Shown here piece after piece: positions 24,892 through 63,800 of a stretch of DNA of 64,000 nt; within the stretch, counting starts at the first letter, position 1; each line of letters opens with the position of its first letter. Made by a program: the position numbers. The stretch is from Harriotta raleighana (taxonomy: Eukaryota): the NCBI GenBank assembly GCA_050575255.1, contig JBNZDD010013708.1:4866810-4930809 (forward strand), given 5' to 3'.

Positions 24892-27800
24892 CACCACTTT
24901 ACAGGTAAAGTACAAACAGGCCTATGAAAAGGCCAGGGGCCATCACGTGGGCTTCCGAAGCCTGCAGGATGACCCCAAGTTGGTCCACTCCATGCATATA
25001 GCCAAGATGCAGTCTGAGCGTGAGTACAAGAAAGGCTATGAGAAGAGTAAGACTAAGTACCACACGCCGCTGGACATGATCAACATCACCGCTGCCAAGA
25101 AGTCCCAGGAAGTGGCCAGCAACATTAGCTACAAACAGCCGATCCACAATTACACCTACCTGCCCGATGCCATGAACGTTCAGCTGTGCAAGAAAATGAT
25201 GAACATCCAGAGTGACGTAAGTGCTTTCTTAGGGATTAAGGGATATGAGGATAAGGCAGTTAGGTGGAATTAGTTTAGAAGATCAGCCATGATCTTATTG
25301 AATAGCGGGGCAGGCTTGAGGGGCCAAATGGCCTACTCCTGCTCCTTATTCTTATGTTCTTAAGGCAATGGAACAAGCAATTTGTCAAGTTTGGCACCTG
25401 AAAAAATGGGAGCAAACTTAGAAGATTGGACAAATTGAGGGTTATTAGGTGATGCTCCTGTTAATGTTGCAAGCCAAATCCCTAATGGGTAGGATGGTCC
25501 TAGCTGGACAAGCAGCGGGAAAGCTTTCCAGACAGTGATACCAATGATAAGCTAAATGGCTCTATCTTCAGCGCCTTGGGACATCCTCCAAATGTGAAAG
25601 GCACTCTATAAATGTAATTTTGTTGTTATTGTTTCTGCTTATAGTCCATCAGTTACCCCAATGCACACTCTGGGGTACTCCAAATCCGCATCCAATACTT
25701 TTCAGATTAGGTAAGCAGGATCTGTCCCTCTAGGAAGAGAGAGAGCGCGCATTCCATTCCAACAAGCTGTCTCTGGGATTCTTTACGTGTTGGTGGGATC
25801 CATGGAATTCTCAGATTGGTTTGGATGCTCTTAAGCACAGAGATGGGTTTCTGCATGTTTCAGCCCCCCTCCCCCGGCTGAACCCCCACCCCAAACATTA
25901 ATAGATATCATAAAGGAATCTTTGGGAGAGTTGAGTAAATAGTGGGGATTAATTGTGGGTGATTGCGATTGCTCGGCGCTAGTTAAGACATACAGGTAAC
26001 CCTGAATTTCTGAAATTGAGGATGTAGATTGTGTGGGTAGAATCAATTTATCTTTTAAAAAACTTTTTAAAGTCCCTGATGAATTGTATTCTGCATCAAA
26101 TTGCTTTCCTACAGATAGGAGACCATCTGCAGAAGTTCCTGTAAAGGGTGTTTGTGCAGATATGTCCACTGCCTGTTTGATGATGCCAAATGAGTGATCG
26201 AATTTTCTCATGTCGTTTTTCTCTCTCTCTATTTTGTCCCTGAAGAACAACTACAAATACGATTACAATAACTGGTTTAAAGGCATTGGCTGGTCCCCGC
26301 ATGGATCAATAGAAGTGGAGAAGGTGAAGAAAGCTGGAGCGGCCCTGAATGAGCATAACTACAGACAGCACCCAGACACCATCAAGTTCACCAGTGTGCC
26401 TGACTCAATGGAAATGGTTCTGGCCAGGGCCAATTCACTGCAGCTGAATGACGTAAGTGTGTCTTAACAACATCTACAGATTGTATTTGTACAGGGCCCT
26501 TCAGGCTGGGCGACATCTCAGAGTGCTTAAGAGTGGTGGTGCCTGTCCCTGAGCCAGGAGGAGGGAGGTGACCGTAAGCACAATCAAAGAGTCAATGGTC
26601 TTCGATTGTGATCTAAAAGAGAGGGAGATTATGAGCTAAAATCTCAGAGAGGGATGCCAGATTTCTTTCTTCCATAACATTTTACATACCCTTTCCACAT
26701 CCCATAGCTTGTTACTTTAACTGGGAGGGACACTTGATGTGGCATGTGCACACAGAGCCGTTCTATGAGTCAGCTGGTATGCAGAATACTTTCTCTCACA
26801 GAAATACACACAGGTCATACCATTTTACAATGGATCATGTATGTGAAGCGCTTTTAGATGTCTCGACGACGTGAAAAGGCCCTGTATCAATTCGCAAGGG
26901 TTGTTATGATGGGTGAGAAAAACTTTTCTGCCATTTTTTCCTCCATTGTGGGTGAAGAATTGCCAGCCTGAAGTGCCTGCTTGCCCAACACTTAGCCCAG
27001 CTCTGTCAATGAAATCCTGGTGCATTGTGACTCATGGCATTCATTGATGTTGTTCCTCAGTTGCAGGCAACCCACTTTTGCCACACCCAGCAGGTACCTT
27101 GTGTTGTTGTTGAGAAAATGGAAGTGTAAACTTGTTCCTGTTAAACCCATACGTTTTTGATGTTACAGAAACTCTACAGATCTGGAGGAGAAAAGATAAA
27201 GCACAAGTACACCTTACCCCACGATGTACCACAGTTCATTCAAGCCAGATACAACGCTGCCAACATCAGTGATGTAAGGAACATCTTCCTTTGCTGTGAC
27301 ATTCTGTTTGTGGGGACCCTGCTGTGTGCAATTGGCTGACGCGTTCCGCCCACAAATATACAGTCAATTCACTTTACAGTATATTCTGTGAAGTACTTTG
27401 AGACGTTGAGACATCTGAGACGTCAAAGCCCTCTGAGACGCCGTCCGGCGTGGAGGGAGCCATATACATCAAAGTTGTTGTTGATAAGATGTGAAAAGCG
27501 CTATATCCAAAAAAATGCAAGGATTATTCTTACATTTTACAATCCTGCCCGTGCGTGCTGACAAAATGGCCTTTCAGGCAAAGGCCAGGTGGAACTTTGG
27601 GTCCTCTGTGTATTTCCAGTCAGGAGTGCAATCTTTATTGCTCCATAGGAAACAGTTCCCAGATGTTTACGAAGACAGTTGGCAATTACTTCGTCATTTC
27701 ATTTGAATTAAAGGTGCTGTTTGTTTCTTTTGCAGACTTACTACAAGGACGCCTGGCAGAAAACACTGGCTAAAGGACCCCATGTGGAGGCGAATGCCAT

Positions 27801-60800: not shown

Positions 60801-63800
60801 AGGCCTATAACTTGCAGAGCGATGTGAGTACTGTATTTATATCTCATTGAGAACTGTTTCATTCATTTTATCATTTGTAGTTTTAGATGACCCCACCTTC
60901 GGTGGATTGGGCATTCAGTGACTCTGCTCCAACCCTTTGGAACTCCATCCCACAGTCCCTTCCCTTACTTCTTTCAAGGCCCTTCTTTTCAAACATGTAT
61001 TCAGTCACCCTCATTCCCCCACTCTCTGTATCCCTACCCCGCATATTGAATTGATTTCACCCCTAATTTGAGCGCAAATCCTTGGCCATCCAGTGCCTTG
61101 GAACATCGTCCTGATGTGAAAGGCACTTTATAGATGTAATTTAGTGTTTAGACCATGAACTTTGATCAATTATGAATTGATTGTCAGATTGCTTTCTGAA
61201 AGTAATAAACCGTTCCCCTCCCCCCACCCCAAATAATAATAATTTGGTCATTTAATCCATGGACATTTGTGGGACTCCGTGCACAATTGGCTGTTGTGTT
61301 TTTGCCTACAAAAACACAGTTAATCTACTTTACAATATATTCTGTGAAGTGCTTTGAGATATCTGAACAACATGATAAGGCACTATATCAAATGCAAGCA
61401 TTATTTTTATTATTCCAATACATAAATACGGTTGAATTTTTGTCCCCAAATGGATCCAATGTTGTGTTTCTATGGGATTAATTTAACATGTGGGTAATTA
61501 TGGTTCAGAGTGTGACCTGTTTTGTTTGTTTTGTTTTAACCTGTTTTGTCTGTCAGTGGCTTTACAAGTCTGATCTAGAATGGATCCGCGGTTGCGGATG
61601 GTTGCCTCATGGATCCATTGACGTCAACAAAGTGAAGAAAGCCCAGGAGATCCTCAGTGAGCACCACTACCGTCAGCCTGTCGATCGGATCAAATTCACC
61701 AGCATCACTGATCTCCCCAGCATCGTCCTGGCTAAAACCAATGCAGAACAACAGAGCGATGTAAGACATTTTCATGCATTGTCTTTCACTCTCATAGAAG
61801 CAAGGAAAGGCTATGCTGCCCCTTGAGCCTGTTTGGCCATTTTATGATATCATGGCTTATCTCTACCTCAAGTCAACATATCCGCCCATGGCCCATATCC
61901 CTGACCTACCAAATATCTATCTTGAAAATGTGAATGGATTCAGCATCCCCTACCTTTTGGAGGAGAGAGTACCAGATTTTCACTACCCTCTGAGTGAGGA
62001 TCTGCCTTCTACTTTCACTCCTCAATGGCCTAGCTCCACTTTTAAGATTATTCCCCCTTGTTCTGGAATCACTGACAAGAGGAAATAGTTTCTCTCAATT
62101 GCTTTCTTCAAAAAATACAACAACCCTGTGTTCGACTCCCAAATATAATAATTGACTAAAACCAATACCTTTTCTGGTGACCATTCCATGAATATACTCA
62201 AACCCTCATTCTTGCACAGCTTCACTGGCTCCCCACCCCTCAGAGAATCGAGTGCAAAACTCTCGTTCTCACCTTCAAAGACCTCCGTGGTTTGATTTCT
62301 CCATACCTCTCCATTCTCCTAACCCCATAGCAGCCTATCGGCTCTGTCTGCTGGGTGGTCAACAGCATGCTTCAAGGCCTCCGCACTCCCCACCCCACGA
62401 ATGATGGTTGGGCATTCAGTATCTATTGACCCACACTCTGGAACTCTATCCCGCAATCCTCCACCTCCCCCCACTCTCTTGACTCCTTCAAGTCACTTAT
62501 CAAGACCTTCCTCTTCGACCACACTTAGGCGCTATACCAAATGCAAGGATTATTACTAATATAATTAACTATACCCATTGTTTTCCCCATCTGCAGCGTT
62601 TGTATCACAGTGCTTGGGAAAAAGACAAGACCTCAATTCACCTTCCAAATGATACCCCGGAAATGGTGCTGTCCAAGCAGAACGCTATCAACATCAGCTC
62701 GGTAAGAAACACACAACAGCGTCTCCCAGAGGAATGAATTCAAGATCCTCATCCTTACCTACAAGGCTATTCACGGCCTTGCTCCTTCCTACCTCTCCGA
62801 CCTACTATCCCCCTATCTACCTGCCCGTATTCTCCGTTCCTCTGGCTCTGGTCTGCTCCACATCCCCTGCCCCAACCGTCCTACCATTGGCGGCCGGGCT
62901 TTCAGCCACTCAGCCCCCAGGCTCTGGAACTCCATCCCCCAGTGCCTTCGCCTCGCTTCCCCCCTTTCCTCTTTCAAGGCCGGTCTCAAGACCTTTCTCT
63001 TCGACCGTGTCTTCAGCTCCCCTCTCGAGTCTCTACCCCCTCCTTGCTCCCACCCTCCCCCCCCCTCGCCCTGAACATTTCCCCCTGCTTGGGTCTTAAA
63101 CCAACTGTCCAGCGCCTTGGGACGTCCTCCTGACGTGAAATGCACTCTATAAATGCGATTTTGTTGTTGTTGTTGTTGTTGACAACTTACATTTATATAG
63201 CGGTAGGGAAATCTAGAGATCGGGGCAGAGAATCCAAAAGCTCAGCCAGCAACAGTGACACAAATAAGTGATTCAGGATGAAGGGTACACACAGAATTAA
63301 CTGAGTGGAGTGGTAAAGCAGAGGACAGGAGTGAGAGAAGATAGGCAAGATTGAGGATATGAAGGGATGAGAGTGAAGACCTTGAAATCAATCTTCTTGG
63401 AGCTATTGGATTGCAGTGAAGGTAGAGTGATGGACATGTAGAGTTTGGTGAGGGTGCAGGTGGAAGAGTTTGGGATAAGTGGGACTTTATGGATGGTGAT
63501 GCTAGGGAGAACAGCGAGCTAATTGAAAAGCCCAGGCAACAGCAACAACAACTTGCAATTATACAGCACTCCTCATGCTGGGTAGCGTCACAGAGTAGCT
63601 TGATAGTGGCGGAGCCTGAAGCCGAATCGGGGGGGGTGGGGGTGGGGGGGGTGGGGGTGGGGGGGGAGGTGACTGTAAGCATAGTTGAAGAGGAAGGAGG
63701 GGGCAAGATGGAGAAATACAGGGATAGAGTTTCAGAGTTTCATGGGGTAGTGGGTGAAAGTGTGGCTGCCAATAATAGAATGGAGGGCATGAAAAACAGG

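What the first reader, a model, noticed from the sequence alone, without database searches (positions are those of the whole stretch)
24905..60823. Exon-restricted concerted evolution of the 312-nt exons
Seen: two groups are nearly identical even at synonymous sites, {24905, 29259, 33161} and {42226, 45272, 49146, 52138, 54848, 58470, 60512}. For example 29259 and 33161 differ at only about six of the first ~225 nt. Most flanking introns are unalignable, and neighbouring 105/108-nt exons (e.g. 27736 vs 32354) are far more diverged. The homogenised exons look rich in G/C-ending codons. Inference: ongoing non-allelic gene conversion that works mainly on exons long enough to provide a homology tract, possibly GC-biased, so one part of each super-repeat is homogenised and the rest drifts.
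Basis: partly seen in the sequence, partly recalled or inferred. Interest (0 to 1): 0.68.

Follow-up and report, generated by a model that had tools for sequence, protein, structure and literature searches.

The report
Exon-limited gene conversion in nebulin
The window is part of a vertebrate nebulin muscle gene in which the long 312-base exon of each repeat unit has been kept alike among units, most likely by copying between exons, while neighbouring short exons and introns diverged.

Summary
The whole window is the + strand super-repeat region of a nebulin gene. It is not human and is probably from a cartilaginous fish. Each super-repeat is built of 312 + 204/207 + 105 + 108 nt exons. There are twelve 312-nt exons, not ten.

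Seven of them (42226 to 60512) are 86-97% identical, with dS 0.11-0.46 in all 21 pairs. Three more (24905, 29259, 33161) are 86-94% identical, with dS 0.28-0.58. Two (35807, 39326) are not homogenised. In the same super-repeats the 204-, 105- and 108-nt exons are saturated at synonymous sites, apart from a few pairs that lie in duplication blocks. Introns next to the 312-nt exons are at background similarity in 15 of 21 pairs.

Codon bias accounts for only about 0.56-0.63 of the codon identity; 0.89 is observed. The exons are mosaics, with sharp internal boundaries. GC3 is 0.77, against 0.48-0.57 in the other exon classes.

Protein trees with nine other vertebrates place the central 312-exon blocks by species and the short-exon blocks by position.

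Best reading: intragenic gene conversion that depends on tract length, laid over a few older segmental duplications. "Ongoing" conversion and GC bias are not shown. The mechanism is known; its application to nebulin appears unreported in the papers I could search.

The parts
24905..25216 (+). 312-nt exon, super-repeat S1 (group A)
   Evidence: AG/GT, open frame; Pfam Nebulin; dS 0.43-0.58 to S2, S3
29259..29570 (+). 312-nt exon S2 (group A)
   Evidence: 5 differences from S3 in nt 1-225, 14 in 226-312
33161..33472 (+). 312-nt exon S3 (group A), mosaic of S2-like 5' part and S1-like 3' part
   Evidence: maximum chi-square break after nt 234, p 0.004
35807..36118 (+). 312-nt exon S4, not homogenised
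   Evidence: 72-74% nt identity to S1-S3, 59-62% to group B, dS above 1.3 or undefined; Pfam Nebulin
39326..39637 (+). 312-nt exon S5, not homogenised
42226..42537 (+). 312-nt exon S6 (group B)
   Evidence: dS 0.16-0.46 to the other six; flanks at background except one marginal value
45272..45583 (+). 312-nt exon S7 (group B)
49146..49457 (+). 312-nt exon S8 (group B)
52138..52449 (+). 312-nt exon S9 (group B); the other exons of S9 are old and diverged
   Evidence: dS 0.17-0.46 for the 312-nt exon, but 53199, 53966, 54650 saturated against all paralogues
54848..55159 (+). 312-nt exon S10 (group B)
58470..58781 (+). 312-nt exon S11 (group B) with an unconverted patch at nt 204-223
   Evidence: 9 of 20 differences from the S6-S10 majority in the patch against 14 of 259 elsewhere, p 3e-6
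60512..60823 (+). 312-nt exon S12 (group B); first 33 nt unconverted
   Evidence: 16 of 33 differences in nt 1-33 against 21 of 279 in nt 34-312, p 2e-8; closest to Callorhinchus block, 89%
19091..20056 (+). equivalent block one unit upstream, split into 114-nt (19091-19204) and 198-nt (19859-20056) exons; not homogenised
   Evidence: GC3 0.63 and 0.58
26246..26452 (+). 207-nt exon S1
30343..30549 (+). 207-nt exon S2
34013..34219 (+). 207-nt exon S3
37113..37319 (+). 207-nt exon S4
40400..40603 (+). 204-nt exon S5
42863..43066 (+). 204-nt exon S6
   Evidence: dS 0.67-0.92 to S7, S8, S10
47095..47298 (+). 204-nt exon S7
   Evidence: dS 0.39 to S8, S10
49893..50096 (+). 204-nt exon S8, identical to 55968-56171
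53199..53402 (+). 204-nt exon S9, saturated against all
55968..56171 (+). 204-nt exon S10
59177..59380 (+). 204-nt exon S11, saturated against all
61557..61760 (+). 204-nt exon S12, saturated against all
27169..27273 (+). 105-nt exon S1
32139..32243 (+). 105-nt exon S2
34685..34789 (+). 105-nt exon S3
37583..37687 (+). 105-nt exon S4
41153..41257 (+). 105-nt exon S5
43986..44090 (+). 105-nt exon S6
   Evidence: dS 0.75 to S7
48016..48120 (+). 105-nt exon S7
50686..50790 (+). 105-nt exon S8
   Evidence: dS 0.43 to S10
53966..54070 (+). 105-nt exon S9 (weak donor GTTTGT)
56281..56385 (+). 105-nt exon S10
60106..60210 (+). 105-nt exon S11; 86% identical to mole and gecko blocks, 69% to best window paralogue
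62597..62701 (+). 105-nt exon S12
27736..27843 (+). 108-nt exon S1
32354..32461 (+). 108-nt exon S2
   Evidence: 68.5% to 27736, dS 1.42
35221..35328 (+). 108-nt exon S3
38436..38543 (+). 108-nt exon S4
41364..41471 (+). 108-nt exon S5
45066..45173 (+). 108-nt exon S6
   Evidence: dS 0.13 to 48940
48940..49047 (+). 108-nt exon S7
51476..51583 (+). 108-nt exon S8
   Evidence: dS 0.44 to 57635
54650..54757 (+). 108-nt exon S9
57635..57742 (+). 108-nt exon S10
60307..60414 (+). 108-nt exon S11
45049..45589 (+). homology block that includes an intron: 108-nt exon + 98-nt intron + 312-nt exon, 95.7% to 48923-49463
49143..52456 (+). S8 unit plus the next 312-nt exon: patchy homology (84-97%) to 54845-58788, in exons and intron pieces; old segmental duplication with a younger 97.4% patch (49504-50102 ~ 55568-56177)

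Best explanation
The window is the central super-repeat region of a nebulin gene. The 312-nt exon of each super-repeat encodes three nebulin modules under strong protein constraint.

In two sets of neighbouring super-repeats (S1-S3 and S6-S12), these exons have repeatedly exchanged sequence by non-allelic, intragenic gene conversion.

Inferred steps:
1. Constraint on the protein keeps the 312-nt exons similar enough, over a long enough stretch, to serve as recombination substrates.
2. The introns lose homology, so conversion tracts begin and end inside the exon. Synonymous sites of that exon are therefore dragged along, while introns and the 105/108-nt exons drift to saturation.
3. The 204-nt exons are borderline. 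They are alike only where a duplication block covers them.

A few older segmental duplications or long tracts that include introns lie underneath this pattern (S6~S7, S7~S8, S8~S10, and the flank of S9~S11).

What is shown: the dS contrast, the edges of similarity at exon boundaries, the internal mosaic boundaries, the high GC3, and clustering by species.

What is inferred: conversion as the molecular process, the length threshold as the cause of exon specificity, and any GC bias.
For: 1. Synonymous contrast within the same super-repeats.
- 312-nt exons of S6-S12: dS 0.11-0.46 in 21 of 21 pairs.
- Identical codons at identical degenerate residues: 1644 of 1855 (0.89) for the 312-nt class, 476 of 862 (0.55) for the 204-nt class, 201 of 408 (0.49) for the 105-nt class and 203 of 391 (0.52) for the 108-nt class.
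- Pairs at 0.80 or more: 21 of 21, 1 of 21, 1 of 21 and 2 of 15.

2. It is not codon-bias convergence. Between group A and group B, which have the same GC3, the fraction is 742 of 1178 (0.63). The expectation from pooled codon usage is 0.55-0.56.

3. Edges. blastn matches between group-B exons stop 3-6 nt outside the exon in most pairs. Flanks are at background in 15 of 21 pairs.

4. Mosaicism.
- PHI test on the seven exons: 28 informative sites and 170 incompatible site pairs. p 0.0005 with window 5 and p 0.003 with window 10.
- S12 has 16 of 33 differences in nt 1-33 against 21 of 279 after that, p 2e-8.
- S11 and S12 keep a 20-nt patch with 9 of 20 differences. Its residues match the Callorhinchus blocks.
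- S3 switches from S2-like to S1-like near nt 234, p 0.004.

5. Old units with young 312-nt exons. S9, S11 and S12 have saturated 204-, 105- and 108-nt exons. The nearest relatives of those exons are blocks of other species.

6. Trees.
- The seven group-B blocks are one clade, SH-aLRT 93.5. With Callorhinchus included, one Callorhinchus block nests inside it.
- Holding the S11 A block with the mole and gecko blocks that match its 105-nt exon costs 75.8 log-likelihood units, p-AU 0.007.
- The same grouping is not rejected for the 105-nt block, p-AU 0.575.

7. The gradient recurs in other vertebrates.
- Species-label changes on trees of the same 78 (77 for D) units: A 35, B 47, C 52, D 52; shuffled mean 55.
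- Length-matched 35-residue thirds of A give 36, 38 and 44.

8. GC3 is 0.77 in homogenised 312-nt exons and 0.68 in the two non-homogenised ones. It is 0.63 and 0.58 in the split copy and 0.46-0.57 in the other classes.

9. Published background.
- A homology requirement above 200 bp in mouse cells is stated in PMC3966225 (passage read).
- A model in which constrained exons stay within reach of conversion while introns diverge is in bioRxiv 10.1101/2025.10.29.685298 (passages read).
Against: - No pair is identical and the lowest dS is 0.11, so recent or ongoing conversion is not shown.
- For S8/S10, S7/S8 and S9/S11, the 312-exon similarity is matched by flanking intron similarity of 76-97%. 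Plain duplication suffices for those pairs.
- The assembly is a draft. All 7 single-N positions lie at junctions of short tandem duplications, and one (55567) lies inside S10. An assembler switching between near-identical paralogues could create part of the mosaic signal.
- The cross-species evidence is protein-only and deep. The 35-residue C block cannot reject a clade of the window's own C exons (p-AU 0.27).
- The A-block clade support (93.5) is below the tool's star threshold.
- Singleton differences run S to W 15, W to S 4. That fits a GC-favouring force opposing AT-biased mutation, but it fits a decaying GC content equally well.
- The length-threshold argument rests on one gene. The split-exon case is n = 1.
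Confidence: 0.76

Rival explanations
1. Lineage-specific tandem duplication of whole super-repeats, by unequal crossing-over, with no conversion. This is the usual published explanation for nebulin super-repeats that look alike within a species.
For: Homology blocks that include introns exist: 45049-45589 ~ 48923-49463 at 95.7%, 49143-49689 ~ 54845-55397 at 90.6%, 49504-50102 ~ 55568-56177 at 97.4%, and 51986-52456 ~ 58317-58788 at 88.4%.

S8 and S10 match in all four exon classes (dS 0.17, 0.00, 0.43, 0.44).

Gohlke et al. (PMC7754682, passages read) treat high within-species super-repeat identity as evidence of recent duplication.
Against: A duplication copies introns and all four exons alike. 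Here 15 of 21 group-B pairs have background-level flanks. The 204-, 105- and 108-nt exons of S9, S11 and S12 are saturated against every paralogue, while their 312-nt exons have dS 0.16-0.46.

Internal boundaries inside S12, S11 and S3 are not expected from unit duplication.
Confidence: 0.08
2. Convergence without exchange. Strong purifying selection on the protein, plus a strong preference for G/C-ending codons, makes independent copies look alike at synonymous sites.
For: The block is highly conserved: 82-89% protein identity to the first full 312-exon block of the Callorhinchus protein, and 78-88% to the best block of any other species, against 55-58% for the adjacent 204-nt block.

GC3 is 0.77. 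Codon bias alone gives a match of 0.55-0.63.
Against: Within-group codon identity is 0.89 (range 0.83-0.94) and 0.83. It is 0.63, 0.58 and 0.55 between groups with the same GC3 and similar proteins.

dS between groups is saturated.
Confidence: 0.04
3. Assembly artefact. Reads from near-identical exons were merged or swapped, so both the similarity and the mosaics are products of the assembler.
For: All 7 single-N positions sit at junctions of short tandem duplications typical of unmerged contig ends.

The only identical exon pair (49893/55968) starts 401 nt after the N at 55567. The 97.4% block begins at 55568.
Against: All twelve 312-nt exons differ from one another, by at least 8 sites, and each sits in its own intron context.

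Collapse would give missing or identical copies, not copies 3-14% apart.

The same gradient by exon class appears in protein sets of nine other species from independent assemblies.
Confidence: 0.07

Closest known systems
Nebulin (NEB) super-repeat region and its lineage-specific expansions (Bjorklund et al. 2010, recalled, not held; Gohlke et al. 2020, PMC7754682, passages read)
   Same: Same gene family and architecture: seven-module super-repeats of 243-244 residues. Central super-repeats are more alike within a species than between species.
   Different: The papers I could read explain the similarity by duplication of whole super-repeats. In this window the similarity is confined to one exon of the unit in most pairs, which whole-unit duplication cannot produce.
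Human NEB triplicate (TRI) region, an 8-exon segmental duplication (PMC9109913, abstract seen in listing)
   Same: Tandem duplication of super-repeat blocks, introns included. In the window, S8~S10 and the 45049/48923 block resemble this.
   Different: TRI copies are near-identical over exons and introns alike. Here intron homology is patchy (84-97%) and absent for most pairs. I made no comparison with human sequence.
Interlocus gene conversion with mosaic divergence: constrained exons stay homogenised while long introns escape (model and HMA4 data, bioRxiv 10.1101/2025.10.29.685298, passages read; homology-length requirement, PMC3966225, passage read)
   Same: Synonymous sites of constrained exons diverge less than introns. 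The effect depends on similarity and on the length of the tract. The result is a mosaic pattern.
   Different: Here the partners are exons of one gene rather than separate gene copies. The repeats are old: several units appear to predate the split from Callorhinchus. Exon length sorts which exons take part.

Membership tests
Nebulin gene, super-repeat region | Nebulin repeat modules (Pfam PF00880) | tested here: met
   3 of 3 tested 312-nt exons, E 7e-16 to 2.5e-10; also one open frame over a 207-nt exon
Nebulin gene, super-repeat region | Seven-module super-repeat of about 243 residues repeated in tandem | tested here: met
   312 + 204/207 + 105 + 108 nt = 729/732 nt, twelve times. Other species' proteins have the same 243/244 spacing.
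Nebulin gene, super-repeat region | Closest proteins are nebulin rather than NRAP or nebulette | tested here: met
   Proteins named nebulin match at 60-83% identity; NRAP matches at 43-47%
Concerted evolution by non-allelic gene conversion | Paralogues closer to each other than to orthologues of other species | tested here: met
   10 of 12 window 312-exon blocks have a closer paralogue than any block of 11 other proteins. Clade of 7 has support 93.5; positional grouping rejected, p-AU 0.007. Protein level and distant species only.
Concerted evolution by non-allelic gene conversion | Synonymous divergence in the tract far below that of flanking neutral sequence | tested here: met
Concerted evolution by non-allelic gene conversion | Mosaic sequences, phylogenetic incompatibility, discrete tract ends | tested here: met
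   PHI p 0.0005 and 0.003; boundaries in S12, S11, S3. An assembly chimera cannot be excluded.
Concerted evolution by non-allelic gene conversion | Within-species clustering against close relatives at nucleotide level; polymorphisms shared between paralogues | not testable with these tools
   No eukaryotic genome or read collection is on hand. The protein collection stops at 5000 residues.
GC-biased gene conversion | Raised GC at silent sites of converted tracts | tested here: met
   GC3 0.77 against 0.46-0.57; introns 0.41
GC-biased gene conversion | Excess of W-to-S changes among fixed or transferred differences, polarised with an outgroup | tested here: inconclusive
   No outgroup DNA. Singletons run S to W 15, W to S 4, other 3, which does not decide the matter.
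Segmental tandem duplication of whole super-repeats | Comparable identity across exons and introns of the unit | tested here: not met
   Met only for S8~S10 and three partial blocks. Not met in 15 of 21 group-B pairs or for S9, S11, S12.

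The most novel reading that the evidence does not exclude
Length-dependent conversion between exons of one gene may be a general, long-lived property of vertebrate nebulin. It would homogenise the three-module 312-nt exon of central super-repeats independently in every lineage, while the short exons keep their positional orthology.

If so, within-species super-repeat identity overstates recent duplication. Nebulin would also offer a natural in-vivo series (105, 108, 204, 312 nt) for measuring the homology length that germline conversion needs.
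Probability: 0.45. Interest if true: 0.6.

Novelty: new member of a known kind. Interest (0 to 1): 0.45.

Why it matters
Nebulin super-repeat number is used to infer thin-filament length evolution, and the history of duplications is read from how alike the super-repeats are. If one exon of the unit is homogenised by conversion, whole-repeat identity mixes two signals, and duplication dates and counts inferred from it are biased.

The locus also gives a clean natural contrast for how exon length and protein constraint decide which parts of a repeated gene evolve in concert. The four exon lengths share the same chromosomal context and the same expression.

For annotation and variant calling, it warns that the 312-nt exons are the part of the gene most prone to mis-mapping.

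Tried and rejected
**Is the window human?** I rejected this.
- Rfam found no 7SL/Alu-like or any other family (0 hits).
- The best mammalian proteins are only about 80% identical on the most conserved exon.
- The closest block is from Callorhinchus.

**Full-length nebulins of close relatives.** The protein collection returned only proteins up to 2000 residues or 5000 residues. The third search added no cartilaginous-fish protein. The decisive close-relative tree could therefore not be built.

**Joined model.** I left out building and searching a joined spliced model; exons were searched and aligned one by one.

**Codon-bias convergence.** Tested and rejected.

**Alignment length as the cause of the tree gradient.** Tested with 35-residue thirds of the A block and rejected.

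**Other genes.** Open frames of 130 residues or more, on both strands, gave no Pfam family other than Nebulin (10 of 27 frames tested). No tRNA was found.

**Literature.**
- 'nebulin' with 'gene conversion': 9 papers. I opened three: the silk-gene paper cites nebulin only in its reference list, and two mention it only in passing. The other six I saw as a listing only.
- 'nebulin' with 'concerted evolution': 1 paper, which cites nebulin only in its reference list.
- Bjorklund et al. 2010 is not held, so I cannot say whether it discusses conversion.
The supplementary tables and data files of Gohlke et al. may hold per-exon identities that bear on the pan-vertebrate claim.

Full report
**What the window is**

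The 64-kb window has 42% G+C and seven single N positions. Its + strand carries, from end to end, exons of a nebulin gene.
- Three of three tested carry the Pfam Nebulin repeat.
- A profile built from these exons, plus splice-site scoring, gave an exon map.
- From about 24.9 kb onward the gene consists of twelve super-repeats (S1-S12). Each is made of a 312-nt exon (A), a 204- or 207-nt exon (B), a 105-nt exon (C) and a 108-nt exon (D), together 243-244 codons.
- Exon borders are inferred from frame, AG/GT and homology. No transcript data were available.

**Not human**

I do not take the window for human.
- Rfam found no family at all, so no 7SL/Alu-like sequence.
- The best mammalian and bird proteins are only 77-83% identical on the most conserved exon.
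- The closest block is from the elephant shark Callorhinchus, at 89%, with shared residues that tetrapods lack.

The source is probably a cartilaginous fish. I did not try to identify it further.

**The observation**

Group B (42226, 45272, 49146, 52138, 54848, 58470, 60512):
- 86.2-97.4% nucleotide identity, median 92.0.
- dS 0.11-0.46 in all 21 pairs.

Group A (24905, 29259, 33161):
- 85.9-93.9% identity, dS 0.28-0.58.

Between the groups, and for S4 and S5 against everything, identity is 59-77% and dS is above 1.1 or undefined.

29259 and 33161 differ at 5 of the first 225 nt and at 14 of the last 87.

In S6-S12 the other classes have median identities of 62.7% (B), 62.9% (C) and 64.8% (D). 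Their dS is saturated except for these pairs:
- B: S8/S10 dS 0.00, S7/S8 and S7/S10 dS 0.39, S6 against these 0.67-0.92.
- C: S8/S10 dS 0.43, S6/S7 dS 0.75.
- D: S6/S7 dS 0.13, S8/S10 dS 0.44.

**Introns**

Self-comparison shows that matches between group-B exons end 3-6 nt beyond the exon in most pairs.

I aligned 100-nt flanks globally and compared them with a null of random 100-mers from the window (mean 52%, 99th percentile 59%).
- 15 of 21 group-B pairs are below the 99th percentile on both sides.
- 3 pairs are marginal (60-65%). Two of these overlap the upstream D exon, because that intron is under 100 nt.
- 3 pairs are clearly similar: 45272/49146 upstream at 92%, 49146/54848 downstream at 86%, and 52138/58470 upstream at 76%.

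The intron-containing blocks are:
- 45049-45589 ~ 48923-49463, 95.7%
- 49143-49689 ~ 54845-55397, 90.6%
- 49504-50102 ~ 55568-56177, 97.4%
- 50641-50824 ~ 56236-56419, 85.9%
- 51448-51680 ~ 57609-57838, 84.1%
- 51986-52456 ~ 58317-58788, 88.4%

So S8 and S10 are an old segmental duplication with a younger patch. For three A-exon pairs, duplication alone would do.

**Why duplication alone fails**

S9, S11 and S12 have B, C and D exons saturated against every paralogue, yet their A exons have dS 0.16-0.46 to the rest. Introns at the neutral distance implied by dS 0.2-0.4 would still align. Dispersed repeat copies at 70-78% identity are readily found in the same search. The flanks, however, are at background.

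**Why codon bias fails**

At residues identical between two exons, codons are identical as follows:

| Comparison | Identical codons | Fraction |
|---|---|---|
| Within group B | 1644 of 1855 | 0.89 (range 0.83-0.94) |
| Within group A | 217 of 261 | 0.83 |
| Group A against group B | 742 of 1178 | 0.63 |
| S4, S5 against group B | 426 of 732 | 0.58 |
| Expectation from pooled codon usage | - | 0.55-0.56 |

**Mosaics**
- Among the seven group-B exons, 66 of 312 sites vary.
- The PHI test on 28 informative sites (170 incompatible pairs) gives p 0.0005 (window 5) and 0.003 (window 10) from 2000 permutations.
- S12 differs from the S6-S10 majority at 16 of its first 33 nt and at 21 of the remaining 279, p 2e-8.
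- S11 and S12 share a 20-nt patch (nt 204-223) that is identical between them and differs at 9 of 20 from the others. The residues it encodes match the two Callorhinchus blocks. The patch therefore looks like an ancestral island that escaped homogenisation.
- S3 is S2-like up to about nt 234 and S1-like after it, p 0.004.
- Caveat: an assembler that switches between near-identical copies could produce such mosaics.

**GC content**

| Sequence class | GC3 |
|---|---|
| 312-nt exons, all | 0.64-0.82 |
| 312-nt exons, groups A and B | mean 0.77 in each |
| 312-nt exons S4, S5 | 0.68 |
| Split copy | 0.63 and 0.58 |
| B exons | 0.57 |
| C exons | 0.53-0.56 |
| D exons | 0.46-0.50 |
| 20 upstream exons | 0.53 |

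Introns have 0.41 GC. GC at codon positions 1 and 2 is 0.36-0.44 in all classes.

Singleton differences in group B run S to W 15, W to S 4, other 3. This agrees with a GC-favouring force but does not prove one.

**Other species**

Three protein searches gave 241 proteins, none longer than 5000 residues. I cut named partial nebulins into A, B, C and D blocks by the 243/244-residue spacing.

Nearest relatives of the window's blocks, compared with 11 other proteins:
- A blocks: 10 of 12 have a closer paralogue in the window (87.5-99%) than any block of another species (78-88%). S4 and S5 do not.
- B blocks: the paralogue wins in 5 of 12.
- C blocks: 3 of 12.
- D blocks: 3 of 11, with 2 ties.

In a tree of 124 A blocks:
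- N-terminal super-repeats group by position across species.
- Central ones group by species: window 7 (with one Callorhinchus block nested), eagle 7, mole 6, gecko 4, gar 4, frog 4.

On one common set of 78 units (77 for D), species-label changes are 35 (A), 47 (B), 52 (C) and 52 (D), with a shuffled mean of 55. Thirds of A cut to 35 residues give 36, 38 and 44, so alignment length does not explain the gradient.

Further tests:
- The seven group-B A blocks are one clade, SH-aLRT 93.5, which is below the tool's star.
- Forcing the S11 A block together with the mole and gecko blocks that match its C exon (86%) is rejected: 75.8 log-likelihood units, p-AU 0.007.
- The same grouping on C blocks is not rejected, p-AU 0.575.
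- Against my reading: a clade of the window's seven C exons is not rejected either, p-AU 0.27. The C block lacks power.

In the other species, pairs with A identity of 88% or more often have B, C and D identities of 60-80%. Of 79 units, the best non-recent paralogue beats every foreign block in 36 (A), 24 (B), 8 (C) and 9 (D). This count is biased toward foreign hits for short, noisy blocks.

**Mechanism**

The most economical account is conversion between exons of the same gene. The A exon is the most constrained part of the unit: 82-89% identical to Callorhinchus, against 55-58% for B. It is also the only stretch above 300 nt.
- A review states that efficient recombination in mouse cells needs more than 200 bp of uninterrupted homology (PMC3966225, passage read).
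- A recent model shows that purifying selection keeps exons within reach of conversion while long introns escape, giving mosaic divergence (bioRxiv 10.1101/2025.10.29.685298, passages read).
- The order 312 > 204 > 105/108, and the non-homogenised split copy (codon match 13 of 26 and 22 of 37 against 24905), fit a length threshold.
- The threshold is an inference, and the split exon is a single case.

**What is known**
- Gohlke et al. (PMC7754682, passages read) and, as cited there, Bjorklund et al. 2010 explain within-species similarity of nebulin super-repeats by independent duplications.
- 'nebulin' with 'gene conversion' found 9 papers. I opened three: one cites nebulin only in its reference list, and two mention it only in passing. 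The other six I saw as a listing only.
- 'nebulin' with 'concerted evolution' found 1 paper, which cites nebulin only in its reference list.
- Bjorklund et al. is not held, and supplements are closed, so prior mention cannot be excluded.
- The process itself is a known kind. Nebulin would be a new and rather clean member.

**Verdict**

- conversion is not shown to be ongoing;
- homogenisation is not strictly limited to exons;
- GC bias is unproven;
- the assembly is a draft;
- no close relatives were available.

Interest is moderate.

Noticed in passing
window 14703, 21781, 21841, 22310, 30653, 30840, 55567: Every single-N position lies at the junction of a short tandem duplication, for example 22172-22451 (139 nt x2, 98%), 30583-30724 (71 x2), 30743-30946 (106 x1.9) and 21808-21874 (34 x2). 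These look like unmerged contig ends in a draft assembly. The one at 22310 duplicates part of exon 22123-22221 together with its donor site.
   Followed up: partly
window 55217-55397 and 55589-55753: An 84.5% direct repeat, offset by 372 nt, straddles the N at 55567 inside the S10 intron. The 97.4% match to S8 begins at 55568, directly after the N.
   Followed up: no
window 994-1191, 4277-4457, 16885-17061, 17551-17725, 24696-24872, 28304-28469, 32890-33083, 44690-44867, 51725-51885, 53639-53800, 61232-61412: An interspersed repeat of about 180 nt has at least eleven + strand copies in introns, 70-78% alike. It gave no tRNA or Rfam match. It is probably a SINE-like element and was not classified. 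Only the + strand was compared.
   Followed up: no
window 9188-9615 and 62736-63174: A 439-nt repeat, 90% identical, lies 53 kb apart in two introns. Open frames over the second copy have no Pfam family.
   Followed up: partly
window 1852-2129: A perfect tandem duplication, 139 nt x 2.0 at 100%, with no N.
   Followed up: no
window 19091-19204 and 19859-20056: The three-module block one unit upstream of S1 is split by a 654-nt intron into 114- and 198-nt exons. It is not homogenised with S1-S3 and has lower GC3, 0.63 and 0.58.
   Followed up: yes
window 45174-45271, 49048-49145, 54758-54847, 60415-60511: The introns between the 108-nt exon and the next 312-nt exon are only 90-98 nt in four super-repeats, against 478-1415 nt in the others.
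   Followed up: no
proteins P0121 (Aquila), P0126 (Chrysemys), P0124 (Talpa): Some central super-repeats in other species are identical or nearly so in all four blocks. In the eagle protein, the four units from residues 1737 to 2466 are an example. These may be true recent duplications or annotation and assembly repeats.
   Followed up: no
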